A program made the position numbers and the translations under genes. A stretch of DNA of 64,000 nucleotides from a bacterium (GTDB lineage Bacteria > Patescibacteriota > Minisyncoccia > UBA6257 > GWB1-50-10): contig JAKAHD010000004.1 in the NCBI GenBank assembly GCA_021815205.1, positions 4,990 to 68,989 of the forward strand. Reading direction: 5' to 3'. The number at the start of each line of letters is the position of its first letter. Position 1 is the stretch's first letter. Below the pieces are notes generated by a model, which did not search any database, was not told the origin of the DNA, and saw only the letters and a list, made by a program, of their open reading frames with translations. Positions 8,593 through 36,467 of the stretch are shown one piece after another.

Positions 8593-8620
8593 TGGTTTTT
8601 GAAATTGCTTCCAGTATAAT
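8593..8620 (+). promoter_or_regulatory. Candidate sigma70-type promoter for pilin 4 (-35 TTGGTT, 16-nt spacer, -10 TATAAT). The -10 element lies only ~8 nt from the ATG, so the transcript may be leaderless or short-leader.
   Basis: Perfect TATAAT at 8615-8620. ATG at 8628. Confidence 0.35.
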
Positions 8621-8627
8621 AGAACTA

Positions 8628-8960
8628 ATGAATTTATTTTCCTCTCTCGTTTCCACCGCTCACGCGCAAACCACATGCGACATCACCACAACTGCAAACT
8701 GCGTCTCGTCAGGACTCACCTCGCTCTCGCAGGTTGAGGGTTCCTTGAACCGGATTGTAGCATTCCTCTTTAATACGTTCTGGGTAGTCGCGGTTGGCAT
8801 GCTCATCTGGGCCGCGATTCTTTTTCTCACCGCCGGAGATAATAAAGAAACTATTGAAAAGGCGAAGAAGATGATTCTCTATGCGGTAATCGCGGCGGCG
8901 GCGGCGCTTCTTGCAAGCGGCATCTATTCCATTACGTATAATGTTCTCCAGGGGAAGTAA
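8628..8960 (+). CDS. TrbC/VirB2-like pilin paralog 4
   Basis: Signal peptide MNLFSSLVSTAHAQ, then TTCDITT..., two TM helices and a AGDNKETIEKAKK linker. Confidence 0.65.
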   Translation: MNLFSSLVSTAHAQTTCDITTTANCVSSGLTSLSQVEGSLNRIVAFLFNTFWVVAVGMLIWAAILFLTAGDNKETIEKAKKMILYAVIAAAAALLASGIYSITYNVLQGK

Positions 8961-22253: not shown

Positions 22254-22413
22254 TCCGGGGCAATGGCACGCATCTCACGGGTACAATCAATGTGGATGTT
22301 AAGACGATGAGAGGAGTATGGTAAAAATTTCTAATTTCTAATTGACCTAATGTCTAATGAGACCGTCCCTGCTCCTCTTCCGATTATCTCCTGTGAGGCG
22401 GTACAATGAACGT

Positions 22414-23529
22414 ATGCCACGAAAGCTGGGTCAGCATTTTTTGAAGAACAAGGATGCTATCAAAAAAACGGTTGCCGCACTCGATGTGAAGGACGGCGAT
22501 ATTGTTATTGAAGTGGGGCCGGGGCATGGAGAACTCACAGAATATCTCAAAATGCAAAAATCAAAATGTAAAATTATCGCCATCGAAAAAGATGCGCGGC
22601 TTGCAAATTTCCTTGAAAAGAAATTTTTGTCATATTCCCATCCCGCCAGCTCTCCTTTTCTCCGTCATCCTGAGTCCTCCTCTTCGGCGGACGAAGGATC
22701 TCTCCACGGAGATTCCTCTCCGCCAAAGGCGGATCGGAATGACAGGAAGGGTGGGTGGCGGACTTGGAATAACAACGGGGAAGAGAGTCGGAGGGTTGAG
22801 ATTATTCACGGCGACATTTTAAAAATCCTTCCCACCATCATTGCCGAAGTAATGAATGAAGAAGATTCCCGTGCGGCGGAAAAAGTGGGTGAAGGACTGC
22901 GTCCTTCTTCCGACATCGTTCGGCTGAAATATGAGCATGCTCTTATTTCACTCCTCGCTCGTCGGAATAGGACTTGGGCTAGCGCCCCGGAGCGCACACT
23001 TTTTCTGCCGCACGGGAATCTTTCGTACAAACTCATCGGCAACATTCCCTACTACCTCACGGGGTATCTTCTCCGCACAATAAGCGAGCTCCCGATTCTT
23101 CCCGAGCGCGCGGTCTTCATGATTCAAAAGGAGGTTGCGGAGCGGATTGTGGCGCTCCCGCCGCGCATGAACCTCCTTGCGGCGAGCGTTCGCTACTGGA
23201 GCGATCCCAAAATCATAGCCGCCGTCTCAAAAGACGACTTTTCCCCGCCCCCCAAGGTCGAGTCCGCGGTGATACTCCTCAAAACACTCCCTTCTGCGAC
23301 AAAAACTCGCACACTCCCGAAAGAAAACTACTACCGCGCCGTGAAATTACTCTTTGCACACCCGAGAAAAACTATCTTGAACAACATTAGGCCTGGTTTT
23401 CATCCCTTCCAGAACGATTTTTTGGGCGAACTTGAGCGGGCGGGCATCAATCCGGAGGGAAGGCCCCAGAATCTGAGCGTACATGATATAAAAAAGATAA
23501 GCGAAATAGTGTACAATATGAATGAGTAA
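22414..23529 (+). CDS. rsmA: 16S rRNA (adenine1518/1519-N6)-dimethyltransferase RsmA/KsgA, carrying two in-frame insertions derived from repeat families A and B
   Basis: LGQHFL...EVGPGHGELT...IAIEKD and C-terminal KsgA motifs. About 100 extra residues relative to typical KsgA are encoded by repeat sequences at 22672-22746 and 22971-23003. Confidence 0.8.
   Translation: MPRKLGQHFLKNKDAIKKTVAALDVKDGDIVIEVGPGHGELTEYLKMQKSKCKIIAIEKDARLANFLEKKFLSYSHPASSPFLRHPESSSSADEGSLHGDSSPPKADRNDRKGGWRTWNNNGEESRRVEIIHGDILKILPTIIAEVMNEEDSRAAEKVGEGLRPSSDIVRLKYEHALISLLARRNRTWASAPERTLFLPHGNLSYKLIGNIPYYLTGYLLRTISELPILPERAVFMIQKEVAERIVALPPRMNLLAASVRYWSDPKIIAAVSKDDFSPPPKVESAVILLKTLPSATKTRTLPKENYYRAVKLLFAHPRKTILNNIRPGFHPFQNDFLGELERAGINPEGRPQNLSVHDIKKISEIVYNMNE
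22672..22746. repeat. Head-to-head pair of family A repeats inserted in frame in rsmA
   Basis: CGTCATCCTGAGTCCTCCTCTTCGGCGGACGAAGGATC ... GATTCCTCTCCGCCAAAGGCGGATCGGAATGAC. Confidence 0.65.
22971..23003. repeat. Family B repeat inserted in frame in rsmA (encodes TWASAPERTL)
   Basis: Identical core to 9633-9668. Confidence 0.7.
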
Positions 23530-24388
23530 GTGCGCCTCATGCCGAATGGCGCGGTCGTCAAACAATAATTTTTCAATGAAAGGAACGGGGCCTAAAAAAT
23601 CCGTGCGGAAGCGAAGAATAATAATATCCACAGTCATCCTTGGATGCGGCGTATTTCTCGCGTTTCTGCTCGTACTGGGCGCTTCCTCAGCGTCGCAAAA
23701 GCCGCTCGTTTCGGTGGTGGGGGGAAGCGATCAAAATCTGCAGACCAATAGCGGCGGGGGGTTTTTCAACCTGAACCCGCTCGGCACGACTACCGACGCG
23801 GCTTCCGGTAAAAATCTTACTAGTGAATTCGCGCAGAACTATGTAAAAAACGTCTTCACCGTGAACACCCAAAACCCCTCCAACGCCTCGGGAACGCTCC
23901 GCTTGCCCGCACCCGGTACCGTAAATAACGCGCTCGCCAAGGTACTCTCAAGCGATCTGGAGTATCCGACCTTTACGGAGAAGGATATTAGGGTGGGGAG
24001 CGATAACTCAACCTCAAGTAAGATGCGTTATATGAACGCTATCAGTGCTGTTACGCAAAGAAATTTCGGAACATTCAAAATAGAAACCACCAAAATACTG
24101 AGCGATCTTTTTCAAAATAACGATGCGGAGCCGCTCGCGCAATATACAAATATAATCCGTTCGGAAATACGGGACACGCTCGCGCTCGAAGTTCCTCCCC
24201 AGTTTGTGCTGTGGCATCTCCAAGATCTGAATCTTTGGCAAAAGAAACTTACCCTTTTCACCGCGGTGCTTAACTTTAATAGCGATCCGCTCAAGGCCGC
24301 CGTTGCGGTCCAACAAATCAAGGGGGTGCTCCAAGAAACCGCATCGCTCCAGGATACCATCCAAAAACAATATAAGAACCTCGAATAG
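23522..24388 (+). CDS. Hypothetical secreted or membrane-anchored protein, first gene of the T4SS-like operon. The real start is possibly ATG 23576.
   Basis: N-terminal TM helix (IISTVILGCGVFLAFLLVLGA) followed by a Thr/Asn-rich domain. Confidence 0.45.
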   Translation: MSKCASCRMARSSNNNFSMKGTGPKKSVRKRRIIISTVILGCGVFLAFLLVLGASSASQKPLVSVVGGSDQNLQTNSGGGFFNLNPLGTTTDAASGKNLTSEFAQNYVKNVFTVNTQNPSNASGTLRLPAPGTVNNALAKVLSSDLEYPTFTEKDIRVGSDNSTSSKMRYMNAISAVTQRNFGTFKIETTKILSDLFQNNDAEPLAQYTNIIRSEIRDTLALEVPPQFVLWHLQDLNLWQKKLTLFTAVLNFNSDPLKAAVAVQQIKGVLQETASLQDTIQKQYKNLE

Positions 24389-24389
24389 C

Positions 24390-25928
24390 ATGTTTTCTCT
24401 TGGGAATAGATGTAAAAAAATTCTTGTGGCCGTTCTCGGAATTGCCATAATTTCCGCTTCTTTTCCTGGTGTATTTTTAAGGCGTGCGAGCGCAATCGTC
24501 ACCCCCCCACTGATCGTATTAGATCCCACGGTTACGGCAACACTCGCGGCAACTCAAGCGGCGAACCTTGCGGCGCTCCATGTCGGATGGCTTGAGGAGG
24601 TGCTTTATCACATCCAGAAAGCGTGGGAATTTATCCAGAAATACGTACTTGATGCACTCCTCGCCTCCCTCAAAAAACGCCTTCTTGATGAGATCACAAA
24701 CGAGACGATACAGTGGATTCAGAACGGGAAGACGCCGGTTTTCACGCAAAATTTCGGCGACGTGTTCCGAACCGCGGCGGATCAGGCGGCGGGGGACGTG
24801 CTCCAAAACCTAGGTGAGGGTCAGCTCTGCACGGGACTTCCGCAAAAACTCTACAATCTCCAGCTTACCCAGCCGCAACCCCTCCGGCAAAGCGTGAGTT
24901 GTACGCTCTCACAGGTGGTGGGGAACATCGAGGCGTTCAAACAAAACTTTTCACAAGGAGGGTGGGTTGGATACCAGGACCTCTTGATGCCGCAAAACAA
25001 CCAGTACGGTATTATGATACTTACTCAACAAGCGCTACAGAACGAGTTGAGCCAAAAAACCCAGTCGGCGGTGCTACTCCAGCAAGTGAATCAGGGGTTT
25101 AACATCAAACAATGCACCACATGGAGATTGTATGAAAAAGCGACAAACCAACCGGTGCCGAACTCCGATGAAAACGTTACTGACCAACCTCCGTCTGCCG
25201 ATCCAGCGCTCGAATACAGGTGTGTCGAGGAAAAAGTGACTACCCCGGGAAGAACCGTTGCGGACAGCGTAAGCAAAGCGCTCGGCTCGAATATTGATTT
25301 CATTGTGAATACCAACGACCTCTCGAACGCGCTCGGTATGGTGCTTGATGCGGCGTTCAACAGGCTTATGAAGGCCGGGGTGAGCGGACTTGCAAGCTTC
25401 ACGCAAAGTTCAGGAAAGGGCATTGATTCGTCAACGCTTGGAAATGCGCTTACCGATTACTCCCAAGGGAGGAATATCACCATCAACACCAACCAATCTT
25501 CTCTTTCGGACTCTCTCTCGAAACTTATCGCGCAGGCGTCAAGCACTCTGCGAGACGCATCCGACACGCTTGTATCCGCATCGAGTTCCGCGGCATATCT
25601 CTATCAAACCGCGTTCGCGCTCAAGGACTGCCTGGGACCGAATGCGTCCTCAACCGACATTGCATGGGCGACAAGCACGATGGCGCTCGCAAGCTCGACC
25701 TACCCCGCGCAGATCACGCAACAACGGGCCGATGTGGCACGTGAGATTCCCCTTGTGCAAAATCTCACTCCCGAATACTCGAATAAGAACGCGATTGACG
25801 CCGCGGTTTCCGCCGCAACCAAGCTGAAATCGGACGCCACAACACTCTCAAACGCCATAGAATCTAATGTCGCCGAGGCGCAAAACCGATTAAGCGCTTG
25901 TATAAACACCACTCACACCTCACTGTAA
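24390..25928 (+). CDS. Hypothetical secreted protein (512 aa; N-terminal TM/signal; Ser/Thr/Ala/Gln-rich)
   Basis: N-terminal hydrophobic helix. Operon-internal position upstream of the VirB6-like gene. Confidence 0.45.
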   Translation: MFSLGNRCKKILVAVLGIAIISASFPGVFLRRASAIVTPPLIVLDPTVTATLAATQAANLAALHVGWLEEVLYHIQKAWEFIQKYVLDALLASLKKRLLDEITNETIQWIQNGKTPVFTQNFGDVFRTAADQAAGDVLQNLGEGQLCTGLPQKLYNLQLTQPQPLRQSVSCTLSQVVGNIEAFKQNFSQGGWVGYQDLLMPQNNQYGIMILTQQALQNELSQKTQSAVLLQQVNQGFNIKQCTTWRLYEKATNQPVPNSDENVTDQPPSADPALEYRCVEEKVTTPGRTVADSVSKALGSNIDFIVNTNDLSNALGMVLDAAFNRLMKAGVSGLASFTQSSGKGIDSSTLGNALTDYSQGRNITINTNQSSLSDSLSKLIAQASSTLRDASDTLVSASSSAAYLYQTAFALKDCLGPNASSTDIAWATSTMALASSTYPAQITQQRADVAREIPLVQNLTPEYSNKNAIDAAVSAATKLKSDATTLSNAIESNVAEAQNRLSACINTTHTSL

Positions 25929-25931
25929 CCC

Positions 25932-27617
25932 ATGAAGCGGCCTCTGAAAAAAATCCTCATTCCCGCGGCGCTCCTTGCGCTCGTGTTCTTTGTGGTGCCG
26001 CATCTCGCGTATGCAATATGGCCGTTTCCTTCGCTGGGGGAGATTGTCTCGGGAGTGTTGCGGTTACTTGCGTATGTTCTAAATTTCATCTTCGGGACTC
26101 TCTTTATGCTCGGCGCGATGCTCGCGAAAGCGATACTCGATCTGAACTTCAATATCCTCACCACTCAGAACGGCCTGGTGCAGGTGGGGTGGAAAATCTC
26201 GCGCGACCTTGCAAATCTCGGCTTTGTGCTCCTCATTATTTTTATCGCGTTCGGCACCATCCTCCGCATCGAGAGTTACGGGGCGAAGAAGCTCCTTCCA
26301 ATGCTCATCGGGGCCGCGATCATCGTGAACTTCAGCTTGGCAATCGGCGGCGTATTCATCAACTTCTCGAACGTCCTCTCAAACTCGTTCATTACGAAGA
26401 TGGGGGATAATTTTACTACGTCCATCGCGGGCGCCTTCGGCGCCCAGCGGCTCCTCTTGCCCCCCGACAATCCGCCGCCGCCCGACCCCGCGGAGCAGGG
26501 AGGAGCGCTCGTCGGTTTTTCGAGTGTGGTTTTGATCGGCCTCGCAAACTTGATTTTTATCTCCGTCTTTACGCTTATTGCGGCGCTCGTGATGTTCCTT
26601 ATCGCCGGCATGCTCCTTATCCGGTACATCGTGCTCTCGTTTCTCCTTATCCTCGCCCCGATCACATGGCTCTTCTGGGCGTTTCCATCCCTGAAGCATC
26701 TCTTCTCCAAGTGGTGGAGCTCGTTTATCGAGTGGGTGTTCTTTGCGCCCGCGATGCTCTTCTTTGTCTACATCGCGGTGCTTTCGGCGCAAAATCTAAA
26801 GGATGTTATCCAGCCCACTGGCTCCGGGTTTAGCGGTATTTTGAGCACTGTGATGTCAACGGGAATGCAGATGGTGGTCCTCGCAGGAGTTCTTGTGGGC
26901 GGCGTGATCGCCGCGCAGAAGATGGGGATCGCGGGGGCGAGCGCGGCGGTAAACGCCGGAAAGAAGGTGGGGAAGAGCACGCAGAAATGGGCGGGGAAAC
27001 AAGCCGCGAAGGGCGCTTCGTACCCGCTTCGCACCGTAACCGGAAGAAAAACGGCGGAAAAACTTCAAACATTCGGCGCAAAGAGCGGGTTTATTGGAAG
27101 AACTCTTTCGGCGCCTCTGCGACAAATTGGTGCCGCGTTAAGTGACGCGCGACTTAAGAGTGAGGACTACACCACGAAGGGGGTAAGAAACACCGTACGC
27201 GGCAGGTCTATTGAGGAGAATGCGAGGCGCCTCCCGCACGCTTCATCTGAAGAGAAGAATGAGATATTAAAATTCTTCCGAGATATGATAGCCCACGGCA
27301 ACACAGCCCAAAAAGAAGCGGCTAATAAAGCGGTTAGAAATGCCCCGGAAAGGGTGCTCGATAAAGAAGCGCGCCTGAAATTTCTCTACGGCGGTGGGGG
27401 AGTGGCTGGCACACGTTATGGGATGCCTAAATTGAAAAATGAGGGGAGATTTTTTCCAAGAATTGAGTTTAGAAATACATTCGTAGAAGAAAATATGCCA
27501 GAGACAAAAGAGGCGGACAAACTTGAACAAGTAAAACGTCTCCTATTTGAGGAGGGGGGTGGGGCCCCTGCTCCAGGCGGTACCGCACCTACCGGCGGAG
27601 GGAGCAACTCTCATTAG
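25932..27617 (+). CDS. VirB6/TrbL-like polytopic membrane protein with a hydrophilic C-terminal tail
   Basis: At least 7 predicted TM helices in the first ~330 aa, followed by a charged tail. Sits beside VirB3-like and VirB4 genes. Assignment is by architecture and context only. Confidence 0.5.
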   Translation: MKRPLKKILIPAALLALVFFVVPHLAYAIWPFPSLGEIVSGVLRLLAYVLNFIFGTLFMLGAMLAKAILDLNFNILTTQNGLVQVGWKISRDLANLGFVLLIIFIAFGTILRIESYGAKKLLPMLIGAAIIVNFSLAIGGVFINFSNVLSNSFITKMGDNFTTSIAGAFGAQRLLLPPDNPPPPDPAEQGGALVGFSSVVLIGLANLIFISVFTLIAALVMFLIAGMLLIRYIVLSFLLILAPITWLFWAFPSLKHLFSKWWSSFIEWVFFAPAMLFFVYIAVLSAQNLKDVIQPTGSGFSGILSTVMSTGMQMVVLAGVLVGGVIAAQKMGIAGASAAVNAGKKVGKSTQKWAGKQAAKGASYPLRTVTGRKTAEKLQTFGAKSGFIGRTLSAPLRQIGAALSDARLKSEDYTTKGVRNTVRGRSIEENARRLPHASSEEKNEILKFFRDMIAHGNTAQKEAANKAVRNAPERVLDKEARLKFLYGGGGVAGTRYGMPKLKNEGRFFPRIEFRNTFVEENMPETKEADKLEQVKRLLFEEGGGAPAPGGTAPTGGGSNSH

Positions 27618-27629
27618 TAATCGCTTATT

Positions 27630-29243
27630 ATGCCAAACGAAGAACGTGAAAACTTATACTGGATTCCCATCCTCGACGATTCCGTCTGGGAGCCGCTTCA
27701 GAAAAAAAACTATGCCGACGCCGAGCTTGCACTCGGAAGCATACTTGAATCCCTTTCCCCCCACGAATGGAATGTGGTGTTTTGGGCGGCGCTTATAGAA
27801 GGGTTCCCGATTGTGCGCGGAGAGCTCACCGAAAAAGAGTGGCGGGAGAACGTGCAGCCGATGCTCGCAAGATTGGTGCTTCAAATCGCCTCCGGAGAAG
27901 CTACCGCCAATATATTCAGCGAGCTGGTCTCATATCCCGACACCGCACAAAAATTCGAAACGCTTCTCATTTACACCTCAACAACCGCGGATGTCGAGAG
28001 TGAAATAAAAATCAAAAAAATAAATCGTCCGCTCTATACCTTCCTTATTGCAAGTCCTGCTCAAGAACTCTTTTCTCCTTTATCGCCATACCGTATCGCA
28101 AGGATTTCTTCGGTGGTGGTGAGCCAGCGCTACACCACAATCCCAGAAAAACTCAAAGATGAACTCTTCTCCTACGCAACCGCCGAAGATATTGCGAGGA
28201 TCGCGGGGGAACAACATCTTTCTCCTGAAAAGACGAATGTGATCGCGACACTTACCGGAAGGGTGCTCCTTGGATTTCTCCACCTTGAGGATATGAAAAA
28301 AGAAATTCAAAAAACACTTGATTTGGATCCGCGGCTTACGGACGCGGTCTATCAGGCGCTCGACAAAAAAATATTTTCTGAATTCAAGGACGAAATCCAC
28401 GAGGTGTATGATCCCGTAATTATCCAAACAAAACCGTCGGAAACCGGGTCCTCGCCGGAACCCGAAGAAAAAACAATCACCTTCGCGGGACTCGAGAAAG
28501 ACGCCCTAGGACCGGAAGAAAACGTGCCGGTGCGTATCTCGAGCGCTCCAATAGAAGAAAAGAAGGAAGACAACCCGTTCGTGCTTCAAGAAGAGAAGCC
28601 GCTTGAGACGGCGGGGGGCACGATGACGGGGAAAAAGTTTTCATTTTCGCTCGGCGGATTCTTCAAACCAAAGAAGAAGGACGAATCCGTCTCCCGGGAA
28701 CCCGTAAAGGCAAAGATAGAGCTTTTTGGCGGAGACAAAGACGAGAAAAGAGTAATTCATTATAGTGAGCTCCGCACGCCGCTCGAGGCGAGAGAAGAGG
28801 ACATCTTCAAGCTAAAAGAAGAACAGCCGATTAGTCCGATAGGACAGATTGGTCCTATCGGTCCAATTGGTCAAATTGGTCCAATTGGTTCTGTTGGTAG
28901 TCCTACCAGTCCTATTAGTCCAATTGATTCCAATTCCGCTTCCGCCCCTTCTCCGCTCACGCCTCCATCTACGAAGAAATCCCCCTGGGCGTTCAAGTGG
29001 TTCGGCTCCCAGGCGCCCGCCCGCGATGAGCAGAAAGCGGTTCCTGAAAATAAGACCGTGGGTGAAACATCGTTCGAGGAAAAACCGGAAGAGAAAAAAG
29101 AAAAAGAACCAGTTAGTCCTATCAGTCAAATTGGTCCAATCAATCCTATAAGTCCAATAGGTTCAATCAGTCCTATCACAGACGAACCCAAGAACCCCAC
29201 CATTGAGGGGAATATTGTGGACTTACGCACGCTCAAAAAATAA
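27630..29243 (+). CDS. Hypothetical soluble protein with Gly-X-Y / PIS tandem repeats near the C-terminus
   Basis: No TM helix. Contains GQIGPIGPIGQIGPIGSVGSP, encoded by 9-bp tandem repeats. Confidence 0.45.
   Translation: MPNEERENLYWIPILDDSVWEPLQKKNYADAELALGSILESLSPHEWNVVFWAALIEGFPIVRGELTEKEWRENVQPMLARLVLQIASGEATANIFSELVSYPDTAQKFETLLIYTSTTADVESEIKIKKINRPLYTFLIASPAQELFSPLSPYRIARISSVVVSQRYTTIPEKLKDELFSYATAEDIARIAGEQHLSPEKTNVIATLTGRVLLGFLHLEDMKKEIQKTLDLDPRLTDAVYQALDKKIFSEFKDEIHEVYDPVIIQTKPSETGSSPEPEEKTITFAGLEKDALGPEENVPVRISSAPIEEKKEDNPFVLQEEKPLETAGGTMTGKKFSFSLGGFFKPKKKDESVSREPVKAKIELFGGDKDEKRVIHYSELRTPLEAREEDIFKLKEEQPISPIGQIGPIGPIGQIGPIGSVGSPTSPISPIDSNSASAPSPLTPPSTKKSPWAFKWFGSQAPARDEQKAVPENKTVGETSFEEKPEEKKEKEPVSPISQIGPINPISPIGSISPITDEPKNPTIEGNIVDLRTLKK
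28829..28935. repeat. 9-bp tandem repeat tract (ATYGGTCMA)n inside the CDS
   Basis: agtccgataggacagattggtcctatcggtccaattggtcaaattggtccaattggttctgttggtagtcct. A second tract lies at 29110-29180. Confidence 0.7.
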
Positions 29244-29734
29244 TGGAATTCCAAGTACCCCAGTTTATAGAACAGAAGCCGAAAATTGTGGGGCCCCTCA
29301 CACTCTCGCAATTTTTTTACCTCGCGGGCGCCGCGATTGTGAGCTTCGTCTCCTTCAGGATATTCACTTTTTTCCTGTGGCTTCTCATCACGCTCATCTT
29401 CGGCGCCGTAGGCGTTACGCTTGCATTCGTGAAGATAAACGGACAGCCATTCCCGAAACTCATCGGCTCCGCGTTCAATTACTTCTGGGGGCCGCGCGTC
29501 TATACCTGGCAGAGAAAAGCGCCCCAAACCACCATCGATCTCCAGAAGATCGAGGAGATTGAGAACCTGCGGGAGCATATGCGCGTACAAGAGCGGCTTA
29601 AAAACATGGCGCTCTCCGTGATGACGGGGAAGTTCTTCCTTAAAAAACCGGAAACGGAAGACCAAAACCGGTATGAGACGGTGGTGTATCTTACGGGAGA
29701 GCGGAAGCAGGCGAAGAGAGTGGATTACTCATAA
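29243..29734 (+). CDS. VirB3/PrgI-like small membrane protein (2 TM)
   Basis: IEQKPKIVGPLTLSQFFYLAGAAIVSF followed by a second TM helix. Lies immediately upstream of VirB4. Its start overlaps the previous stop (TAATG). Confidence 0.45.
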   Translation: MEFQVPQFIEQKPKIVGPLTLSQFFYLAGAAIVSFVSFRIFTFFLWLLITLIFGAVGVTLAFVKINGQPFPKLIGSAFNYFWGPRVYTWQRKAPQTTIDLQKIEEIENLREHMRVQERLKNMALSVMTGKFFLKKPETEDQNRYETVVYLTGERKQAKRVDYS

Positions 29735-29973
29735 TGAGAATGGAAAGAACTCGGAACTTTACACGACTAAAAAGTGTGCGCTCCGGGGCAACAAGCCCCA
29801 AGTCTTATTCCGACGAGCGGGGAGTGAAATAGGGGCATGCTCACATATTTCAGCCGAACGATGTCGGAAGAAGGACGCAGTCTTTCACCCACTTTTTAGT
29901 CGTTAAAGTTCCTCGACGTTATTTTTGAGATTATTCATAATTCGTATAAAATAGAGGTAGAGGTACTACATAC

Positions 29974-30615
29974 ATGGCGGAACCGACGCAAGCATCGCAA
30001 CAATTTGTAAAGATAAAAGAGATTCGAGACGGCATTCTCTATATGAAGGGTGGCGGCCTGAGGCAGGTGCTTATGGTGAGCGGCATCAACTTTGAGCTGA
30101 AATCTGAGGGCGAGCAGGCGACGATCTTGGGCACGTTCCAGAAGTTCTTGAACTCGCTCGATTTCGGCGTCCAGTTCTTCATCCATTCGCGGAAGACGAA
30201 TATTGAAAAATATCTCGCAAACATGGAGGAGTGTAAGAAGGGGGAGACGAATGAGCTTCTGCGCGTTCAGATCGAGGAGTACATCAACTTCATTCGCACG
30301 TTCGTCGAGGAGAACGCCATCATCAACAAAAGTTTCTTTATCGTAGTGCCCTACGATCCCGTCTCGCTTACCGCGGGGAAGGGCGGCTTTTTGGACGGGC
30401 TGTTCGGCAAGAAATCAAGCATATCGAAAGAACAGCAGAAGCAGGCAACGGACGCGGAGAACGTCGCCCAACTCAAGGAGCGCGCGACCCAGGTCATCGA
30501 GGGGCTCGCGGTTATGGATCTCCGCACGGTGCCTTTGGAGGACGAGGATCTCGTCGAGTTGTTCTACAACCTCTACAACCCGAAGCTTGTCGATAAAAAA
30601 GGAGTTACCGCATGA
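29974..30615 (+). CDS. virB4: VirB4/TrbE-family ATPase, N-terminal domain, encoded as a separate 213-aa gene
   Basis: Directly precedes the Walker-A-containing VirB4 part and overlaps it by ATGA. The combined length of 796 aa equals a typical VirB4. Confidence 0.55.
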   Translation: MAEPTQASQQFVKIKEIRDGILYMKGGGLRQVLMVSGINFELKSEGEQATILGTFQKFLNSLDFGVQFFIHSRKTNIEKYLANMEECKKGETNELLRVQIEEYINFIRTFVEENAIINKSFFIVVPYDPVSLTAGKGGFLDGLFGKKSSISKEQQKQATDAENVAQLKERATQVIEGLAVMDLRTVPLEDEDLVELFYNLYNPKLVDKKGVTA

Positions 30616-32363: not shown

Positions 32364-32366
32364 ACT

Positions 32367-32807
32367 ATGGCGGAACTCTCAAGGGCCGCCTCGGGGGCGG
32401 CATCAAAAACAAAAGGAAGCACGGGAAAGAGCGCCCCTGCACGTTCCGACGAGCCCATATCCGAAGTTACAAACAAGTTCGAGCTCTCCGAGATCGTGGT
32501 GGGAACAATCTACACTTTTACAACCGACGGTCTCTGCGCACTGCTTGATATCTTCACATTAGAATCATTTGCGGTAGCGAGTTGGGTGATACGAAACGGC
32601 GTCGCGGGCACCATCTGGATGTGGTTTTACGCGAAAAAAGATCCTCATGTAAAAAAAGCAGGACGACTCATTTTCAAAGGATTTGCGAACGCCACGCCGC
32701 TCTTTATTAACACGATTATGTTTCTCATTGAGGTATATATTCACAACCACCCCGAGAAGTTCGCGGCACTCGAGAAGGTCGCGGGAGCTACGGGCGGTAA
32801 GGCATAA
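32367..32807 (+). CDS. Hypothetical small membrane protein
   Basis: Two hydrophobic segments. Operon-internal position. Confidence 0.4.
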   Translation: MAELSRAASGAASKTKGSTGKSAPARSDEPISEVTNKFELSEIVVGTIYTFTTDGLCALLDIFTLESFAVASWVIRNGVAGTIWMWFYAKKDPHVKKAGRLIFKGFANATPLFINTIMFLIEVYIHNHPEKFAALEKVAGATGGKA

Positions 32808-32823
32808 GGTATAATATAAGAAA

Positions 32824-33522
32824 ATGGATTTTAGAAAATCAATCGGACTTATTGGATTAATGGGACTTATTGGTCTTATTGGCGTGTCTCACTCTTTTGC
32901 GCAAACCGCGCCTTCCGCCGCATCAAACGTCCAAGTTGTCATCACCTGGCAGGCGAATAATTACTTTCCGGCGGGATTCGAGGGAAAGTCGCTTCCCGCG
33001 CCTTATGCGCAGGTGGTCGCCTCCGTCGAACTTCTCGAAGACAATAAACTTGCCGATCTTTCTCAAGCCACAGTGAACTGGTTTGTGGACGACAAGTTCC
33101 AAAAATCGGGGGTGGGACTTAAAACATTTTCCTTCTATACCCAGCAGGAGGATTCCGGCTACGTGTCCGTGCGCGCGGTAATTGAGCTCCAGGGCGGGGG
33201 GGGCGCACGCGGCTCGCTTCAGATTCCCATAGTGGCGCCTACTTTGGTACTCTCCTACGCCGCTCCTTCAAACTCCGTAGCCGCAAACTCAAGCGTAACG
33301 CTCGCCGCAATCCCGTTCTCTTTTAACGTCTCATCCCCAAGCGATCTCACGTTCTTCTGGACCATCAATGGGGCTCAATCGAATGTTTCAGGAAACACCG
33401 TGAAGCTCCAACTCGGCGCCCCGACGCCCCTTGACCGGCTGCTCCAGATTTCGGTGAGCGCGCAGAATAACAAGAACCCGCTCGAGATCGGAAAAACAGC
33501 CGCAGCATTTCCCATACAATAA
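32824..33522 (+). CDS. Hypothetical secreted protein
   Basis: Signal peptide IGLIGLMGLIGLIGVSHSFAQ, encoded by the same 9-bp repeat in inverse orientation. Confidence 0.45.
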   Translation: MDFRKSIGLIGLMGLIGLIGVSHSFAQTAPSAASNVQVVITWQANNYFPAGFEGKSLPAPYAQVVASVELLEDNKLADLSQATVNWFVDDKFQKSGVGLKTFSFYTQQEDSGYVSVRAVIELQGGGGARGSLQIPIVAPTLVLSYAAPSNSVAANSSVTLAAIPFSFNVSSPSDLTFFWTINGAQSNVSGNTVKLQLGAPTPLDRLLQISVSAQNNKNPLEIGKTAAAFPIQ

Positions 33523-33544
33523 CAGAACATTAAAGAAAGATGTT

Positions 33545-35113
33545 ATGTTAAAAACAAAACTGAAAAATCTCACGCTAATCGTTTTCGTGTTCCTCGCGTT
33601 TTTTGCGGTTACCGCGATCAATACCGCCTACGCACAAAAGACCTTAAACCCGCCGCAACCGATCGTGAATGTGAATTTTCCGTGCCCGAGCCCCGGTTGC
33701 CAACCAATAACTTCCGACACCCAAGTTACCACCTATATTCAAACTTTCTACCAGTTCAGTTTATGGATCGGTGGCGCTTTGGCGCTTGGGATGATCGTCG
33801 CGGGAGGTATCGTGCGGATCCTATCCGCGGGAAGCCCTGACAAGATTCGCGAGGCGAACGATATGATCACCTCGGCGATCTTCGGTCTCCTCCTCCTTTT
33901 CGGCGCCTATCTTGTCCTCAACACTATAAATCCCCAGCTCACACTCTTGAAACTCCCTGCCGCGGGAGAAGCATCAACCGAAAAAGCGCAACTCACGGAA
34001 AAACTCTCCGACACAAACTGCGTCGCGCCGGGCGTCGAGGACTTCGCAAACATCCCTGTGTGGAACGGGGTAAAACAAATAAGCGTGTTGCATTGCATTT
34101 ACAGGCAAGAAGTTGGACACAATCCAGTTTCTAATGGTTTTGGGTTTGTGGCCGGCGATTACTATGCCGAAGATTTTGCGATTCCGAATGGTTCAATGGT
34201 GTGGAAATATCCGTATTTTACTGGAACGAGCCCCACCGCTACCGCGAAGTGTTTGGTGTACGCCTACAAGGAACCGGGGGTTGGCAAAACGGTGCAGATG
34301 ACTCCGCTCAATTCGAGTTTGAAGTTATGCACTCCGCTATATCAGAATTTGGGGGGGCCTGTATGTAAGGAGTGGCAGTTCTCCGCGAGAGAATCAAAAA
34401 CAAAGGATTTCAAAAACCCCGATCAGTTTGTTACCCGCACCTTCACCGATAAGACATTTCAAAGGGATCCTTTGAGTCCTCCAACCGTTCCTTCTTTCGC
34501 AAGGGACTACTGGGGAGATAATCCTATTTATTACTGCATAAACCCGGATGGGAGTGAAAATAAGAACACCTACTGCGCAAACGAAAACGCCGCTCCTTTC
34601 TGGACGTGCACGGTAGCGGAAAATCCGCCGTCAATACAGAACAAGGATACACCCATAGTGAGTCCGTGCGCCGACTGCGAAGACCTCCCCCCCAACTTTT
34701 CTGTGAACGGCAATCCGTGCGACAAGACGATTGATAACACCACCCTTAACTCCCACAAAGGGTACTGCAGACTTAATAAAAAGTTTACAGCCGATCTCGA
34801 TAAATTCAATAAGCTGATGCAAGCGGCAAAAAACTCTTCTGGGGGAACGGGAATTTCCTGGCAAATCACCGAGGCGTGGCCGAATACGGTGTATCACTCG
34901 TCCCCCTGCCACTACGACGGGCAGTGCGCCGACATCGCGCTCACCGGAAACGTAACGTGTGCGGACGTACAGAAAACAATGGATATTTTGAAATCGAGTG
35001 CGGGGGGCGGATTTTTTAGATCCCTCAACGAGTACGCTCGGCCGCCGCTTGTGTGTAATGCAGAGGGAAACTATAAAACCACCACAGGCAACAACATCCA
35101 TGTGGAGTGGTGA
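33545..35113 (+). CDS. Pilin-like (TrbC/VirB2-type) N-terminal module fused to a ~390-aa Cys-rich extracellular domain. Putative tip or adhesin pilin.
   Basis: Signal peptide ...NTAYAQ, a Cys/Pro-rich stretch, and two TM helices flanking AGSPDKIREAND (same layout as pilins 1-4). The large domain that follows has more than 20 Cys. Confidence 0.5.
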   Translation: MLKTKLKNLTLIVFVFLAFFAVTAINTAYAQKTLNPPQPIVNVNFPCPSPGCQPITSDTQVTTYIQTFYQFSLWIGGALALGMIVAGGIVRILSAGSPDKIREANDMITSAIFGLLLLFGAYLVLNTINPQLTLLKLPAAGEASTEKAQLTEKLSDTNCVAPGVEDFANIPVWNGVKQISVLHCIYRQEVGHNPVSNGFGFVAGDYYAEDFAIPNGSMVWKYPYFTGTSPTATAKCLVYAYKEPGVGKTVQMTPLNSSLKLCTPLYQNLGGPVCKEWQFSARESKTKDFKNPDQFVTRTFTDKTFQRDPLSPPTVPSFARDYWGDNPIYYCINPDGSENKNTYCANENAAPFWTCTVAENPPSIQNKDTPIVSPCADCEDLPPNFSVNGNPCDKTIDNTTLNSHKGYCRLNKKFTADLDKFNKLMQAAKNSSGGTGISWQITEAWPNTVYHSSPCHYDGQCADIALTGNVTCADVQKTMDILKSSAGGGFFRSLNEYARPPLVCNAEGNYKTTTGNNIHVEW

Positions 35114-36348
35114 GAACACCAATGAAACTCGACTATAAAAAAATAATTATCACGCTGGTGCTCGTCGCGGTCTTCGGGCTCGTCGTGTACTTTGTTTGGC
35201 AGGGGATTGCGGGCCCCGCTTCGCCGGGGGTCCCCGCGGTTTCTTCTTCAACTCCTTCCGCGCCAAACCTTCCCGGAGGATCGCTTCCTGCCTCGTCGAC
35301 TTCTTCTCCCCAAACCTTGGGAGGCGGCACCATCACGTTCGGCACAAGCTCGCCCGCGATTATAAGGGTTTCCAATAATCCCGCTGAAGCATACTGGATC
35401 GACGGACAAACGCAAGGAATTTTTTATCTTAACCAAGACGGCCAGGTGTTTCTTGTAAATAAAAACAAGGATGGAAAGGACACCCAGATTACCCAGCAAA
35501 AAATGGGCGCCTTGAATACGATAGCAATCGGCCCCGGCTCACAGCGCGTACTCGCTTCCTTTGGGGATCCGCGCGCGCCGCAGTGGGGCGTGTTCGATGA
35601 TGTGGATCAGGTCTGGCGCCCGCTCCCCTCGACGGTCTTAAGCGCTGCATGGGGAGGGGATAACAACACCTTCTATGGCGTCGTGCAGAACGGTTCCGTG
35701 CCCGCGCTCGCCTCAATTGACATGAGCCGCGGGAACGCCGTTACCAAGATCCTTATTAAAGATTTCCGGTTCCAGGATGTGCAACTCTCTTTTTTGCCCC
35801 CCTCAACACTTTTGCTCACCGAACGAGCGTCCGCACACTATCCCTCGCGGGTGTGGAAAATAGACACTGCAAGTTTGGCGGTGCATCTTCTTATGGGCGG
35901 GCAAAATGGTCTGGTGCTTACGCTAAGCGACGATAAGCGAATTATGTTTTCCTTTATAGGAAATGCATTCCAAATTCTTGACCCCTACACCTTAAGTTCT
36001 GTGGCGCCCGTGCCGTTCCTCACGCTTCCCCCCAAATGTACCTTTTCTGGCGTGATTGCGTACTGCTTCGTGCCGGATTCACAGAATTTTAAGAACGCAA
36101 CACTCCCCGATGATTATCTCACCTTAAAACTATTTACCTCGGACACACTCTATGAGGTAAACGCCGCGAATGGGGGAATGGCTTTTTCAAATATTCCTAA
36201 GTTGCTTAATAATGGCGTGTTTGATGCGATAAATCCAATATTCAGCAATGGATTCCTCTACTTCAGAAACCGTCTCGATAATTATGTGTATGCCTTGAAC
36301 CTTACCTCGGATCAGTTTTCGCAAAACGGACAGCGTGTGGGGGACTAG
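35107..36348 (+). CDS. Hypothetical membrane-anchored extracytoplasmic protein (413 aa), last gene of the operon
   Basis: N-terminal TM helix and a Ser/Pro-rich linker. Overlaps the previous gene by 7 nt. Confidence 0.45.
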   Translation: MVRTPMKLDYKKIIITLVLVAVFGLVVYFVWQGIAGPASPGVPAVSSSTPSAPNLPGGSLPASSTSSPQTLGGGTITFGTSSPAIIRVSNNPAEAYWIDGQTQGIFYLNQDGQVFLVNKNKDGKDTQITQQKMGALNTIAIGPGSQRVLASFGDPRAPQWGVFDDVDQVWRPLPSTVLSAAWGGDNNTFYGVVQNGSVPALASIDMSRGNAVTKILIKDFRFQDVQLSFLPPSTLLLTERASAHYPSRVWKIDTASLAVHLLMGGQNGLVLTLSDDKRIMFSFIGNAFQILDPYTLSSVAPVPFLTLPPKCTFSGVIAYCFVPDSQNFKNATLPDDYLTLKLFTSDTLYEVNAANGGMAFSNIPKLLNNGVFDAINPIFSNGFLYFRNRLDNYVYALNLTSDQFSQNGQRVGD

Positions 36349-36381
36349 GGTTTTTGCCCTGCGCCGCTATTTTCTCATTCG

Positions 36382-36414
36382 GGCGCTCCGGGGCGCTAGC
36401 CCAAGTCTTACCCT
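36382..36414. repeat. Family B repeat (inverted orientation)
   Basis: GCGCTCCGGGGCGCTAGCCCAAGTCTTACCCTC. Confidence 0.65.
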
Positions 36415-36467
36415 CACTCGAAAAAGCGGTGCAGGGCCTTGTAGTGGGGAATGCGACGCGAGGATGA

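What the first reader, a model, noticed from the sequence alone, without database searches (positions are those of the whole stretch)
23522..36348. ~13 kb operon encoding a minimal, monoderm-type T4SS-like machine without coupling protein, relaxase or VirB11
Eleven plus-strand genes are packed with overlaps or gaps of 0-20 nt. They encode two secreted hypotheticals, a VirB6/TrbL-like polytopic protein, a repeat-containing soluble protein, a VirB3/PrgI-like protein, a split VirB4 ATPase, a small membrane protein, a secreted protein, a pilin fused to a Cys-rich domain, and a membrane-anchored extracytoplasmic protein. The only clearly homology-assigned component is VirB4 (Walker A/B). The other assignments rest on architecture and context. 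No VirD4, relaxase, oriT-like nick site, VirB11, or outer-membrane components appear anywhere in the 64 kb. That pattern argues against a classical conjugative element. It fits a chromosomal cell-surface pilus or secretion apparatus of the kind proposed to mediate host attachment or DNA/protein exchange in episymbiotic ultra-small bacteria. Six of the eleven products have no recognisable family, so they are candidates for novel structural or effector components.
Basis: partly seen in the sequence, partly recalled or inferred. Interest (0 to 1): 0.8.

Follow-up and report, generated by a model that had tools for sequence, protein, structure and literature searches.

The report
Known Patescibacteria type IV secretion operon
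This is the chromosomal type IV secretion/pilus gene cluster, next to the replication origin, that most ultra-small Patescibacteria (CPR) carry and that was described in 2023-2025; this copy is an ordinary member, but it shows that the operon's pilin gene is fused to a Hedgehog-type cell-wall peptidase.

Summary
Eleven co-oriented genes (23522-36348) encode VirB6, VirB3/PrgI, a two-gene VirB4 (TrsD-like N-part plus ATPase), a VirB2-type pilin with a long Cys-rich tail, and six proteins with no family. No coupling protein, relaxase or VirB11 lies on the 74.7-kb source contig.

This is the Patescibacteria-clade T4SS (MPF-FATA-derived, pilin-bearing, relaxase-less, next to dnaA/ksgA) described by Wang et al. 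2023 and Quinonero-Coronel et al. 2025. The order ksgA-g1-g2-VirB6-g4-PrgI-TrsD-VirB4-(g8)-g9-pilin-g11-jag/yidC-dnaA is conserved in 80 related Paceibacteria-type genomes.

What I add:
- The VirB4 split is a conserved gene fission. Five relatives have one fused ORF of 716-804 aa.
- The pilin tail ends in a Hedgehog/DD-peptidase (LAS, M15-like) zinc domain. Relatives carry variants of it, or SLT lysozyme domains, in the same place. This looks like a VirB2-VirB1 fusion, and the papers I searched do not mention it.
- g1 is a helical bundle, not VirB8.
- The one large gap (239 nt) holds a palindromic repeat element that also sits in-frame inside ksgA.

Function (pilus, protein or DNA transport) remains inferred.

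The parts
21156..22253 (-). LysM + Peptidase_M23 cell-wall hydrolase. It is a conserved upstream neighbour and a possible accessory peptidoglycan hydrolase.
   Evidence: Pfam M23 1.7e-24 and LysM 1.2e-20. tblastn finds it at the same position in 19 loci whose flank reaches that far. PMC12102498 notes M23/LysM domains in VirB1-like proteins near virB4 in Paceibacteria.
22357..23529 (+). ksgA (16S rRNA dimethyltransferase). It overlaps g1 by 8 nt and carries two lineage-specific in-frame inserts of about 55 aa each.
   Evidence: Pfam RrnaAD 5e-36 in two stretches. It is upstream of the T4SS block in 47 loci. Alignment with 15 orthologues shows the inserts at about aa 92-145 and 167-222. The second insert is the repeat element.
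23522..24388 (+). g1: 288-aa bitopic or secreted protein. It has a TM helix at aa 29-52, a disordered linker and an all-helical bundle at aa 99-287. Its family is unknown.
24390..25928 (+). g2: about 512-aa N-terminally anchored extracytoplasmic protein. It has a conserved Cys-containing domain (aa ~90-340) and a helical, low-complexity C-terminal half. Its family is unknown.
   Evidence: Orthologues in 53 loci at the same position. Invariant Cys and NN motifs. PDB profile search gives only coiled-coil noise. No consistent Pfam hit in 25 members.
25932..27617 (+). VirB6/TrbL-like polytopic membrane protein (561 aa, at least 7 hydrophobic segments, basic cytoplasmic tail).
   Evidence: Pfam TrbL E 1.2e-4. 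TrbL is the only recurrent family in orthologues (7 of 26, best 1.1e-6). Precomputed TrbL_3 hit on the source contig. TM scan.
27630..29243 (+). g4: 537-aa cytoplasmic, largely low-complexity protein with (PIG)n 9-nt tandem repeats and short conserved motifs (KRVVHYSE.RTP; C-terminal EGN.IDLR). Function unknown.
   Evidence: No TM segment. TRF arrays at 28834-28925 and 29115-29178. Orthologues in 49 loci. No PDB hit.
29243..29734 (+). VirB3/PrgI-like small membrane protein (163 aa, 2 TM).
   Evidence: Pfam PrgI E 1.8e-7, above cutoff; TcpE 1.4e-3. Present in 75 of 80 loci.
29735..29973 (+). 239-nt gap specific to this lineage. It contains a structured palindromic repeat element (about 29753-29912), a hairpin at 29785-29799 and the best sigma70-like promoter match of the region (29925-29952).
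   Evidence: Relatives have 12-100 nt here. 129 nt are 91% identical, inverted, to 22880-23004 inside ksgA. RNA fold -68 kcal/mol, z -5.0. Promoter and terminator scan. No Rfam match.
29974..30615 (+). TrsD-like protein (213 aa), the detached N-terminal part of VirB4. It overlaps virB4 by ATGA.
   Evidence: Precomputed Pfam TraC-like PF26593. Faint TraC_F_IV hit. Collinear with aa 1-211 of a single 790-aa ORF in L072 (49% identity). Fused ORFs of 716-804 aa also occur in L074, L075, L078 and L080. Present in 78 of 80 loci. TrsD is described in PMC12102498.
30612..32363 (+). VirB4 ATPase (583 aa).
   Evidence: Pfam P-loop_TraG 5e-30, AAA_10 and DUF87. Profile versus PDB: 4AG5 VirB4 of Thermoanaerobacter 3.7e-51, TrwK 3e-4. 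Walker A and B present. More than 8000 homologues; the top 120 are 75-100% identical and 580-593 aa, and every taxon name that a source gives among them is Patescibacteria-type.
32367..32807 (+). g8: 146-aa small membrane protein. Poorly conserved, function unknown.
   Evidence: Hydrophobic segments. tblastn finds it in only 20 loci, but small ORFs occupy the same slot in others. No Pfam hit.
32824..33522 (+). g9: 232-aa secreted protein, probably two Ig-like beta-sandwich domains.
   Evidence: Signal-like N-terminus. Present in 70 of 80 loci. 13 of 30 orthologues give weak BiPBP_C hits, and a few give PKD hits. No PDB sequence hit.
33545..35113 (+). g10: VirB2-type pilin (signal peptide, helical hairpin aa 58-127) fused to a Cys-rich extracytoplasmic tail. 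The last ~110 aa (nt ~34772-35110) form a Hedgehog/DD-peptidase (LAS, M15-like) zinc domain.
   Evidence: Pfam T4SS_pilin 4e-9. C-terminal profiles versus PDB hit the Sonic hedgehog N-domain at 4.9e-5 (8 sequences) and 1.4e-7 (18 sequences). Invariant H456, D463 and H519 sit on the family's H-x6-D ... H zinc motif, with E496 also invariant. HH_signal is the top weak Pfam hit. The domain occurs only at the C-terminus of this pilin ORF in the loci. 21 of 55 pilin ORFs carry it and 3 carry an SLT motif. The AF2 model was poor (pLDDT 41), so there is no fold confirmation.
35107..36348 (+). g11: 413-aa N-terminally anchored extracytoplasmic protein, probably a beta-propeller.
   Evidence: TM at aa 13-31. 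Present in 58 loci. Weak profile hits to the TolB and WD40 propellers, E 1e-3 to 3e-2. Scattered beta-propeller Pfam hits among orthologues.
36349..36467 (+). Convergent intergenic region after the operon, holding a long hairpin with the invariant-apex element (36383-36413). Possibly the 3' end of the transcript.
   Evidence: Repeat search I5/I10. Fold -45 kcal/mol. No Rfam hit.
7197..8960 (+). Separate array of four small VirB2-like pilin genes (138, 147, 117 and ~110 aa), followed by a PMT-family glycosyltransferase gene (9025-10491). These are the likely major pilin candidates.
   Evidence: Pfam T4SS_pilin 2e-5, 3.5e-11 and 7.9e-9. The fourth pilin was called on the source contig and is visible in translation. 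Pilin arrays are described in PMC12102498.

Best explanation
This locus is a vertically inherited copy of the Patescibacteria-clade type IV secretion system. That system derives from the monoderm (MPF-FATA) conjugation machinery. Here it is in the gene arrangement typical of Paceibacteria/Parcubacteria and lies next to oriC.

Most likely mechanism:
- Shown by homology: a VirB4 ATPase. Inferred: it is assembled from two polypeptides, the TrsD-like N-part and the 583-aa ATPase, translationally coupled through an ATGA overlap.
- Inferred from other T4SSs: VirB4 docks on the membrane proteins VirB3/PrgI and VirB6.
- Inferred: VirB4 then pulls VirB2-type pilins out of the membrane to build a pilus or envelope-spanning conduit. 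The pilins come from the four-gene array 15 kb upstream and/or from g10.
- Motif-level evidence: the operon's own pilin (g10) carries an extracytoplasmic zinc peptidase of the Hedgehog/DD-peptidase type.
- Inferred: that peptidase cuts peptidoglycan cross-links at the assembly site, which is the role VirB1 plays elsewhere.
- Inferred from topology only: the conserved exported proteins g1 (helical bundle), g2, g9 (Ig-like) and g11 (beta-propeller) form the wall-spanning or surface part.

No relaxase or coupling protein is linked to the locus, so it is probably not a conjugation device. What it transports, if anything, is unknown.
For: Component homology:
- VirB4, PrgI, VirB6, TrsD/TraC-like and T4SS_pilin.
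- The closest VirB4 relatives that carry a taxon name are Patescibacteria-type, and the best solved relative is a Firmicutes-type VirB4.

Chromosomal inheritance:
- The whole 11-gene order, plus ksgA upstream and jag/yidC/dnaA/dnaN downstream, recurs in loci from Jorgensen-, Brenner-, Wolfe-, Harrison- and Liptonbacteria MAGs.
- No T4CP, relaxase or VirB11 on the 74.7-kb contig.
- GC content is uniform.

Peptidase domain on the pilin:
- Profile hits to the Hedgehog N-domain at 4.9e-5 and 1.4e-7, with the H-x6-D ... H zinc motif invariant.
- The same slot in relatives holds LAS variants or SLT/lysozyme domains.

Literature:
- PMC12102498 describes the same components, the lack of relaxase and the proximity to dnaA/ksgA.
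- PMC10633639 shows by Tn-seq that the homologous cluster is essential in a Saccharibacterium, and notes the pilins and the missing coupling protein and relaxase.
Against: - No experiment bears on this lineage. The Tn-seq essentiality data come from Saccharimonadia, whose cluster has a different gene order and different accessory genes.
- The rest of the genome could not be searched, so a distant VirD4 or relaxase is possible.
- VirB8, a core part of monoderm T4SSs, was not identified. g1 is not NTF2-like.
- The peptidase call rests on sequence profiles and motifs. The structure model of g10 failed (pLDDT 41).
- The 239-nt gap, with a promoter-like site and a hairpin, means that 'one operon' is not shown.
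Confidence: 0.85

Rival explanations
1. It is an integrated conjugative element, or the remnant of one, whose relaxase, coupling protein and oriT lie elsewhere.
For: The machinery descends from monoderm conjugation systems. A tyrosine recombinase lies next to tRNA-Leu 9 kb upstream. VirD4-like genes occur far from virB4 in many Patescibacteria genomes (PMC12102498).
Against: The position between ksgA and jag/yidC/dnaA is fixed across several candidate phyla or families. Housekeeping genes (pnp, comM-like, ksgA) lie between the recombinase and the block. There is no compositional break. No relaxase or T4CP is on the 74.7-kb contig. Only 109 relaxases were found in 3,035 Patescibacteria genomes.
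Confidence: 0.03
2. It is a DNA-uptake (competence) machine. In this reading it resembles the T4CP-less ComB system of Helicobacter or the archaeal Ced system, and imports host DNA or nucleotides.
For: Like ComB, it has no relaxase, T4CP or VirB11. A ComM-like Mg-chelatase/AAA protein lies 2.5 kb upstream at 19237-21036. In the ABY1 class the T4SS genes co-localise with comF, recG and radA (PMC12102498).
Against: In Saccharibacteria, competence depends on type IV pili and ComEC. Deleting comEC abolishes competence without loss of viability, while the T4SS remains essential (PMC12857230). A PilB-type ATPase gene for type IV pili is present in this window. No DNA-binding component is evident in the operon.
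Confidence: 0.1
3. It is chiefly an adhesion or host-contact pilus, or a protein or nutrient conduit towards the host cell. The pilin-peptidase fusion would be displayed on it to breach the host cell wall rather than the cell's own wall.
For: There are five VirB2-like genes in the window. The hydrolase domains are covalently joined to a pilin in many relatives. VirB2 topology puts a C-terminal fusion outside the membrane (established knowledge of VirB2/TraA pilins). The lifestyle is epibiotic and the homologous system is essential for growth on hosts.
Against: There is no evidence that g10 polymerises. A 390-aa appendage may be incompatible with pilus packing, so the pilin hairpin may serve only as a membrane anchor, like the TM anchors of PrgK/TraG-type VirB1 proteins. 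No effector candidates were identified. Hosts of Paceibacteria are mostly unknown.
Confidence: 0.25

Closest known systems
Patescibacteria-clade T4SS (Quinonero-Coronel et al. 2025, PMC12102498; Southlakia epibionticum SEML1_0006-0019, Wang et al. 2023, PMC10633639)
   Same: VirB4 with an adjacent TrsD-like gene, PrgI/VirB3, VirB6 and VirB2-like pilins. No linked relaxase or T4CP. Chromosomal location near dnaA, dnaN, ksgA and rnpA. Monoderm type, with no VirB7/9/10.
   Different: Relative to the Saccharimonadia prototype, gene order and accessory genes differ. Southlakia has a phage-tail-lysozyme/glucosaminidase protein, an NTF2-like protein and a six-pilin array inside the cluster. Here the pilin array is 15 kb away, the in-operon pilin is fused to a Hedgehog-type peptidase, and g1, g2, g4, g9 and g11 are conserved unknowns. 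The pilin-hydrolase fusion is not mentioned in PMC12102498.
MPF-FATA conjugative T4SSs of Firmicutes (pGO1/pSK41 Trs, pIP501 Tra, pCF10 Prg)
   Same: The local order VirB3 (TrsC/PrgI) - TrsD - VirB4 (TrsE/PrgJ), followed by a membrane-anchored cell-wall hydrolase (TrsG/TraG/PrgK) and a bitopic protein. The best solved VirB4 relative is of this class (4AG5).
   Different: No relaxase, T4CP or surface adhesin such as PrgB. VirB2-type pilins are present, whereas Gram-positive systems lack them. The hydrolase is LAS/Hedgehog-type rather than SLT+CHAP. No VirB8-like (NTF2) protein was recognised. The locus is chromosomal and vertically inherited.
T4CP-less T4SSs (Bordetella Ptl, Brucella VirB, Helicobacter ComB)
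   Same: They work without a VirD4 coupling protein and are not conjugative.
   Different: Those are diderm systems with VirB7/9/10 outer-membrane cores and, for Ptl and Brucella, VirB11. There is no sequence affinity beyond the shared VirB3/4/6/2 families.
Hh/DD-peptidase family (MEROPS M15A subgroup; Sonic hedgehog N-domain and bacterial peptidoglycan metallopeptidases; Roelink 2018, PMC6027127)
   Same: The C-terminal ~110 aa of g10 and its orthologues match the Hedgehog N-domain profile and keep the H-x6-D ... H zinc triad, with a conserved Glu in the window's subtype.
   Different: The domain is fused to a T4SS pilin, is very Cys-rich, has a ~17-aa insert between the Glu and the last His, and scores below the Pfam threshold as a single sequence. 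Activity and fold are not verified.

Membership tests
Type IV secretion system (any class) | VirB4-family ATPase with Walker A and B motifs | tested here: met
   Pfam P-loop_TraG 5e-30. PDB 4AG5 VirB4 3.7e-51. AKSGSGKS and MLVIDE motifs.
Type IV secretion system (any class) | Membrane translocon partners VirB3 and VirB6 encoded next to virB4 | tested here: met
   PrgI above the Pfam cutoff. TrbL is weak in the window protein, recurs in 7 of 26 orthologues, and the precomputed hit is TrbL_3.
Type IV secretion system (monoderm core) | VirB8-like (NTF2-fold) bitopic protein | tested here: not met
   g1, the best topological candidate, is a helical bundle. g11 looks like a beta-propeller. g2 and g9 gave no NTF2-like hit. 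Structures of g2, g9 and g11 were not predicted.
Type IV secretion system (monoderm core) | VirB1-type peptidoglycan hydrolase | tested here: inconclusive
   No SLT domain in the window. The functional equivalents proposed are the LAS/Hedgehog-type domain of g10 and the neighbouring LysM-M23 peptidase. Some relatives have SLT_3 fused to the pilin.
Patescibacteria-clade T4SS (PMC12102498) | VirB4 groups with Patescibacteria VirB4s, nested in MPF-FATA | tested here: met
   Among the top 120 of more than 8000 homologues (75-100% identical), every taxon name that a source gives is Patescibacteria-type. The 80 genome loci are Patescibacteria MAGs wherever the record names a taxon. The best solved relative is a Firmicutes VirB4. 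No tree was built.
Patescibacteria-clade T4SS (PMC12102498) | TrsD-like gene adjacent to virB4, VirB2-like pilin nearby, no relaxase nearby, and proximity to dnaA/dnaN/ksgA/rnpA | tested here: met
   compared with the paper text.
Conjugative element (ICE or plasmid) | Relaxase (MOB) and type IV coupling protein (VirD4/TcpA) linked to the mating-pair genes | tested here: not met
   None among the window ORFs or the contig ends. The rest of the genome could not be tested.
Conjugative element (ICE or plasmid) | Mobile context: variable location, integrase and att boundaries, compositional difference | tested here: not met
   Fixed synteny in 80 loci. GC of each gene is 0.49-0.54, like the flanks.
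LAS / Hh-DD-peptidase (MEROPS M15-like) zinc peptidases | H-x6-D ... H zinc triad, with the catalytic Glu, in the conserved order | tested here: met
   H456, D463 and H519 are invariant, and E496 is invariant in the window's subtype. They sit on the family's H-x6-D ... H motif and the matched segment aligns with the corresponding Hedgehog segment.
LAS / Hh-DD-peptidase (MEROPS M15-like) zinc peptidases | Hedgehog/DD-peptidase alpha/beta fold | tested here: inconclusive
   The AF2 model of g10 from a 5-sequence alignment has pLDDT 41, so no fold search was run. The secondary-structure order is compatible only.
VirB2/TrbC-type T4SS pilins | Signal peptide followed by two hydrophobic helices joined by a short charged loop | tested here: met
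   Pfam T4SS_pilin at aa 58-127. Hydrophobic segments at 9-27, 75-93 and 107-125. The loop motif AGSPDK is shared with the four upstream pilins. Polymerisation cannot be tested.

The most novel reading that the evidence does not exclude
The pilin-peptidase fusion (g10 and its orthologues carrying LAS or SLT hydrolase heads) is a real minor pilin. It would be incorporated into a VirB2-type pilus of a monoderm episymbiont, so that the pilus carries a peptidoglycan-cutting enzyme to the host cell and opens the host wall for attachment or for uptake of host material. That would make it a cell-wall-drilling T4SS pilus, a device not described for any T4SS.
Probability: 0.15. Interest if true: 0.75.

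Novelty: new member of a known kind. Interest (0 to 1): 0.33.

Why it matters
Patescibacteria make up a large share of bacterial diversity. Their T4SS is essential in the one lineage tested, yet its substrate and architecture are unknown. This locus adds no new kind of system, but the comparison across 80 genomes does three useful things.

1. It defines a fixed 11-gene module for the Paceibacteria branch. Five of its exported or cytoplasmic families are conserved unknowns, and together with the poorly conserved g8 they are concrete targets for structural work.
2. It shows that the 'TrsD + VirB4' pair is a fission of one VirB4, because fused forms exist.
3. It points to a recurrent fusion of a VirB2 pilin with cell-wall hydrolase domains. 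This may explain why VirB1 homologues seemed scarce in these systems, and it gives a testable handle on whether the apparatus attacks the cell's own wall or the host's.

Tried and rejected
- g10 structure: AF2 on full-length g10 with the only 5 homologues the protein search returned gave pLDDT 41. I did not use it.
- Profile-versus-PDB searches: no hit with E below 0.01 for g1, g2, g9 or g4, and none for the TrsD-like protein.
- Member-by-member Pfam scans: nothing consistent for g1 or g2.
- 77-aa ORF at 29673-29906: spurious. It lies over the repeat element.
- Rfam at E<=10: nothing credible for the 239-nt gap or for the hairpin after the operon.
- ICE hypothesis: rejected on synteny and gene content.

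Full report
**What is there.** Between 23522 and 36348 the plus strand carries eleven genes. Their junctions measure 1, 3, 12, -1, 239, -4, 3, 16, 22 and -7 nt. The first gene also overlaps the upstream ksgA gene by 8 nt.

**Pfam assignments.**
- PrgI/VirB3 for 29243-29734, E 1.8e-7, above the curated cutoff.
- P-loop_TraG, AAA_10 and DUF87 for 30612-32363, E 5e-30.
- T4SS_pilin for residues 58-127 of the 522-aa product of 33545-35113, E 4e-9.
- A sub-threshold TrbL/VirB6 match for the polytopic product of 25932-27617, E 1.2e-4.
- On the source contig the precomputed hits are TrbL_3 for the VirB6 gene and TraC-like (PF26593) for the 213-aa product of 29974-30615.
- TrbL is the only family that recurs among VirB6 orthologues, in 7 of 26.

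The VirB4 profile finds the Thermoanaerobacter VirB4 structure 4AG5 at 3.7e-51 and TrwK at 3e-4. Walker A and B motifs are intact.

**What is absent.** I scanned every other large ORF of the window against Pfam. I also read the called genes on the 5 kb of contig beyond each window end. There is no VirD4/TcpA coupling protein, relaxase, VirB11 or outer-membrane component. The one T2SSE-family ATPase (49899-51572) is a 557-aa PilB-type protein with an MshEN domain, which is type IV pilus machinery. The rest of the genome (assembly GCA_027423515.1; contig k141_1324413 = DAIBZI010000004.1) could not be searched.

**Whose it is and where it sits.**
- The 120 best VirB4 homologues are 75-100% identical and 580-593 aa long. 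Where a source names the organism, it is Patescibacteria: Jorgensenbacteria, Brennerbacteria or Paceibacterota.
- Downstream lie jag (R3H), yidC, rnpA, then dnaA and dnaN.
- Cumulative GC skew reaches its minimum at about 34-36 kb.
- The block therefore abuts the replication origin.

A scan of one genome per species returned 80 loci. tblastn with each window protein shows the same order in nearly all of them: ksgA - g1 - g2 - VirB6 - g4 - PrgI - TrsD - VirB4 - (g8) - g9 - pilin - g11 - jag/yidC (opposite strand) - dnaA - dnaN. Hit counts are 32, 53, 58, 49, 75, 78, 80, 20, 70, 61 and 58 of 80 for the eleven genes. Many loci are cut by contig ends. The loci span Jorgensen-, Brenner-, Wolfe-, Harrison- and Liptonbacteria. 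This is a vertically inherited chromosomal module, not an island.

**Already known.** Wang et al. 2023 (PMC10633639) reported an essential T4SS in the Saccharibacterium Southlakia. It resembles Gram-positive conjugation systems, carries pilins, and lacks recognisable coupling and relaxase proteins. Quinonero-Coronel et al. 2025 (PMC12102498) surveyed 3,035 Patescibacteria genomes. They report the following:
- VirB4 is present in 2,417 genomes and forms a clade nested in MPF-FATA.
- TrsD-like proteins with remote homology to the VirB4 N-terminus sit next to virB4.
- PrgI/VirB3, VirB6 and VirB2-like pilins are present.
- VirB8 and VirB1 are rare.
- Relaxases are almost never present.
- T4CP genes are mostly far from virB4.
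- In Paceibacteria the system lies near dnaA, dnaN, ksgA, rnpA and rpmH.

A 2025 review already lists these systems as a new branch of the superfamily (PMC12857230). This locus is one more member.

**The split VirB4.**
- The 213-aa and 583-aa genes overlap by ATGA.
- In about 70 loci the two parts are separate ORFs of the same sizes.
- In L072, L075, L078 and L080 a single ORF of 786-804 aa covers both parts, and in L074 one of 716 aa does.
- The 790-aa ORF of L072 matches the window's 213-aa protein over residues 1-211 (49% identity) and the 583-aa protein over residues 223-786 (66% identity).

The pair is therefore a conserved fission of one VirB4, not a frameshift artefact. A TrsD profile finds nothing in the PDB by sequence.

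**The pilin with a Cys-rich tail.** In the loci, the ORF that holds the pilin domain at this position is almost always long, 220-614 aa. The window protein, 18 Cys, ends in a ~110-aa module shared with seven loci. Its motif is WQITEAWPPT..H.S.CH.DGTC.DI...NEY...TTTG.HIHV.

Evidence that this module is a Hedgehog/DD-peptidase-type domain:
- A profile of these eight sequences hits the N-terminal domain of Sonic hedgehog in the PDB at E 4.9e-5.
- After iterating over all 55 complete pilin ORFs, 21 carry the domain.
- An 18-sequence profile reaches 1.4e-7 for Sonic, about 1e-6 for Indian and Desert hedgehog, and gives weak hits to M15C L-Ala-D-Glu endopeptidases.
- The invariant columns are H456, D463 and H519, plus E496 in the window's subtype. 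They form the H-x6-D ... H pattern with a conserved Glu between. By established knowledge of the family, that pattern is the zinc triad and catalytic Glu of Hedgehog/DD-peptidases.
- HH_signal is the top, sub-threshold Pfam hit for single members.
- In six-frame searches of all loci, the domain occurs only at the C-terminus of this pilin ORF.

Other relatives end in further H..D/HxH variants. Three carry the GLFQIN lytic-transglycosylase motif, and in L049 Pfam finds T4SS_pilin + PKD + SLT_3.

The Hedgehog/DD-peptidase family is an established group of peptidoglycan metallopeptidases (PMC6027127). VirB2 topology places a C-terminal extension outside the membrane (established knowledge). The tail is therefore most likely an extracytoplasmic cell-wall peptidase. 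Functionally this is a VirB1 fused to a VirB2. PMC12102498 does not mention such fusions, and two other literature searches found none. The fold is not confirmed, because the AF2 model built from the only five close homologues had pLDDT 41.

**The six unknowns.**
- g2 has a conserved Cys-containing domain and a helical tail, with no database match.
- g4 is cytoplasmic, repeat-rich and mostly low-complexity.
- g8 is a small, poorly conserved membrane protein.
- g9 gives weak Ig-like hits (BiPBP_C in 13 of 30 orthologues, and PKD).
- g11 gives weak beta-propeller hits (TolB, WD40).

All except g8 are conserved across the clade, so they are parts of the machine rather than cargo picked up by chance. 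No VirB8 equivalent was identified.

**How it probably works.**
- Shown by homology: a VirB4 motor with VirB3 and VirB6 membrane partners, VirB2-type pilins, and a pilin-tethered zinc peptidase motif.
- Inferred from what these families do elsewhere: VirB4 extracts pilins from the membrane and drives assembly of a pilus or wall-spanning conduit. The hydrolase opens the peptidoglycan locally. The exported conserved proteins form the extracellular scaffold.
- Unknown: whether the substrate is protein, DNA or nothing (adhesion only).

Conjugation is unlikely, because no relaxase or T4CP is linked and the chromosomal position is fixed. DNA uptake is possible. It is disfavoured by the Saccharibacteria data, where competence depends on type IV pili and ComEC while the T4SS stays essential without ComEC.

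**The 239-nt gap and a side observation.** Relatives have 12-100 nt between PrgI and TrsD. In the window the gap holds a structured element (fold z = -5.0). Of this element, 129 nt recur inverted at 91% identity inside ksgA. There they form one of two in-frame inserts of about 55 aa that orthologues lack. The gap also holds the best promoter-like match of the region, just before the TrsD start, so the block may be two transcription units in this lineage.

The element's apex, GCGCTCCGGGGCGCTAGCCCAAGTC, has these properties:
- It occurs exactly in 57 metagenome stretches from many environments and three times in the window.
- It always sits on a long stem whose sequence differs from copy to copy. 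Standard pairs form in 73-91% of 55 distinct copies at each of 12 stem positions, with three to five pair types per position.
- About half of the copies lie inside long open reading frames, in either orientation.
- Rfam has no match, and I found no paper on it.

It behaves like the palindromic elements of Rickettsia that insert in-frame into genes. The combination of variable arms and an invariant apex is unexplained.

**Verdict.** The system is a new member of a known kind. Residual interest lies in the pilin-hydrolase fusion, the conserved unknown components and the hairpin element.

Noticed in passing
window 36383-36413 (+), 9630-9660 (-), 22968-22995 (-), variant at 29773-29800 (+); related variants 17471-17510 and 61283-61322; metagenome loci L086-L142: A hairpin element with an invariant ~30-nt apex (GCGCTCCGGGGCGCTAGCCCAAGTCTTAC) sits on a 15-30 bp stem whose sequence differs in every copy, even within this window. 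The 25-nt core occurs exactly in 57 metagenome stretches from many environments. About half of all copies lie inside long ORFs, in either orientation. There is no Rfam match and I found no paper on it. It may be an RPE-like palindromic mobile element of Patescibacteria, or a structured RNA.
   Followed up: partly
window 22357-23529 (ksgA), inserts at about 22630-22792 and 22860-23020: KsgA is 390 aa, against about 260-280 aa in orthologues, because of two in-frame insertions of about 55 aa each. The second is the palindromic element in reverse orientation. The first also folds into a long hairpin (-73 kcal/mol) and has a 34-nt match at 10526-10559.
   Followed up: partly
window 7197-8960 and 9025-10491: An array of four small VirB2-like T4SS pilin genes lies 15 kb from the operon. 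It is followed directly by a PMT-family (protein O-mannosyltransferase-like) glycosyltransferase, which may glycosylate pilins. That glycosyltransferase ORF itself contains a copy of the hairpin element in-frame.
   Followed up: partly
window 23522-36348 relative to oriC (about 37990-38266): The 13-kb T4SS block is transcribed towards the origin, so it is head-on to replication. The adjacent jag/yidC/rnpA genes are co-directional with replication. The same orientation is seen in the related loci.
   Followed up: no
window 57782-58789: A 335-aa protein carries an ART-PolyVal domain (ADP-ribosyltransferase of polyvalent proteins, E 9e-11). It lies between a Mur ligase and a beta-CASP RNase. It could be a toxin or effector candidate.
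   Followed up: no
window 19237-21036: A ComM-like protein (ChlI / Mg_chelatase / Mg_chelatase_C) lies 2.5 kb upstream of the T4SS block. ComM helicases act in natural transformation in other bacteria. Whether this proximity is conserved could not be tested within the 10-kb flanks.
   Followed up: no
window 12942-14166: tRNA-Leu (12942-13028) is followed by a tyrosine recombinase gene (13237-14166, minus strand; Phage_integrase + SAM_1). It could be XerC/D or the edge of a small integrated element. A 69-nt repeat next to the tRNA (13057-13125) recurs at 53616-53684.
   Followed up: no
window 18946-19086 and 8976-9006: There is a cluster of perfect 31-nt palindromes (GAGGTCCAACCTCC..GGAGGTTGGACCTC) around the start of the DksA/TraR-type zinc-finger gene. 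One more copy lies after the pilin array (D4/I7/I9).
   Followed up: no
window 1727-1842, 5628-5843, 21032-21148: A family of AT-rich ~30-60-nt repeats (AAATTTCAAATTT...) lies in intergenic regions, including the one just upstream of the LysM-M23 gene. They may be promoter or UP-like elements, or another repeat family (D1/D2/I2/I4).
   Followed up: no
window 49899-54950: A PilB-type type IV pilus ATPase (557 aa, T2SSE + MshEN) is followed on the other strand by three ORFs with no Pfam hit (139, 258 and 275 aa). These may be divergent pilus components.
   Followed up: no
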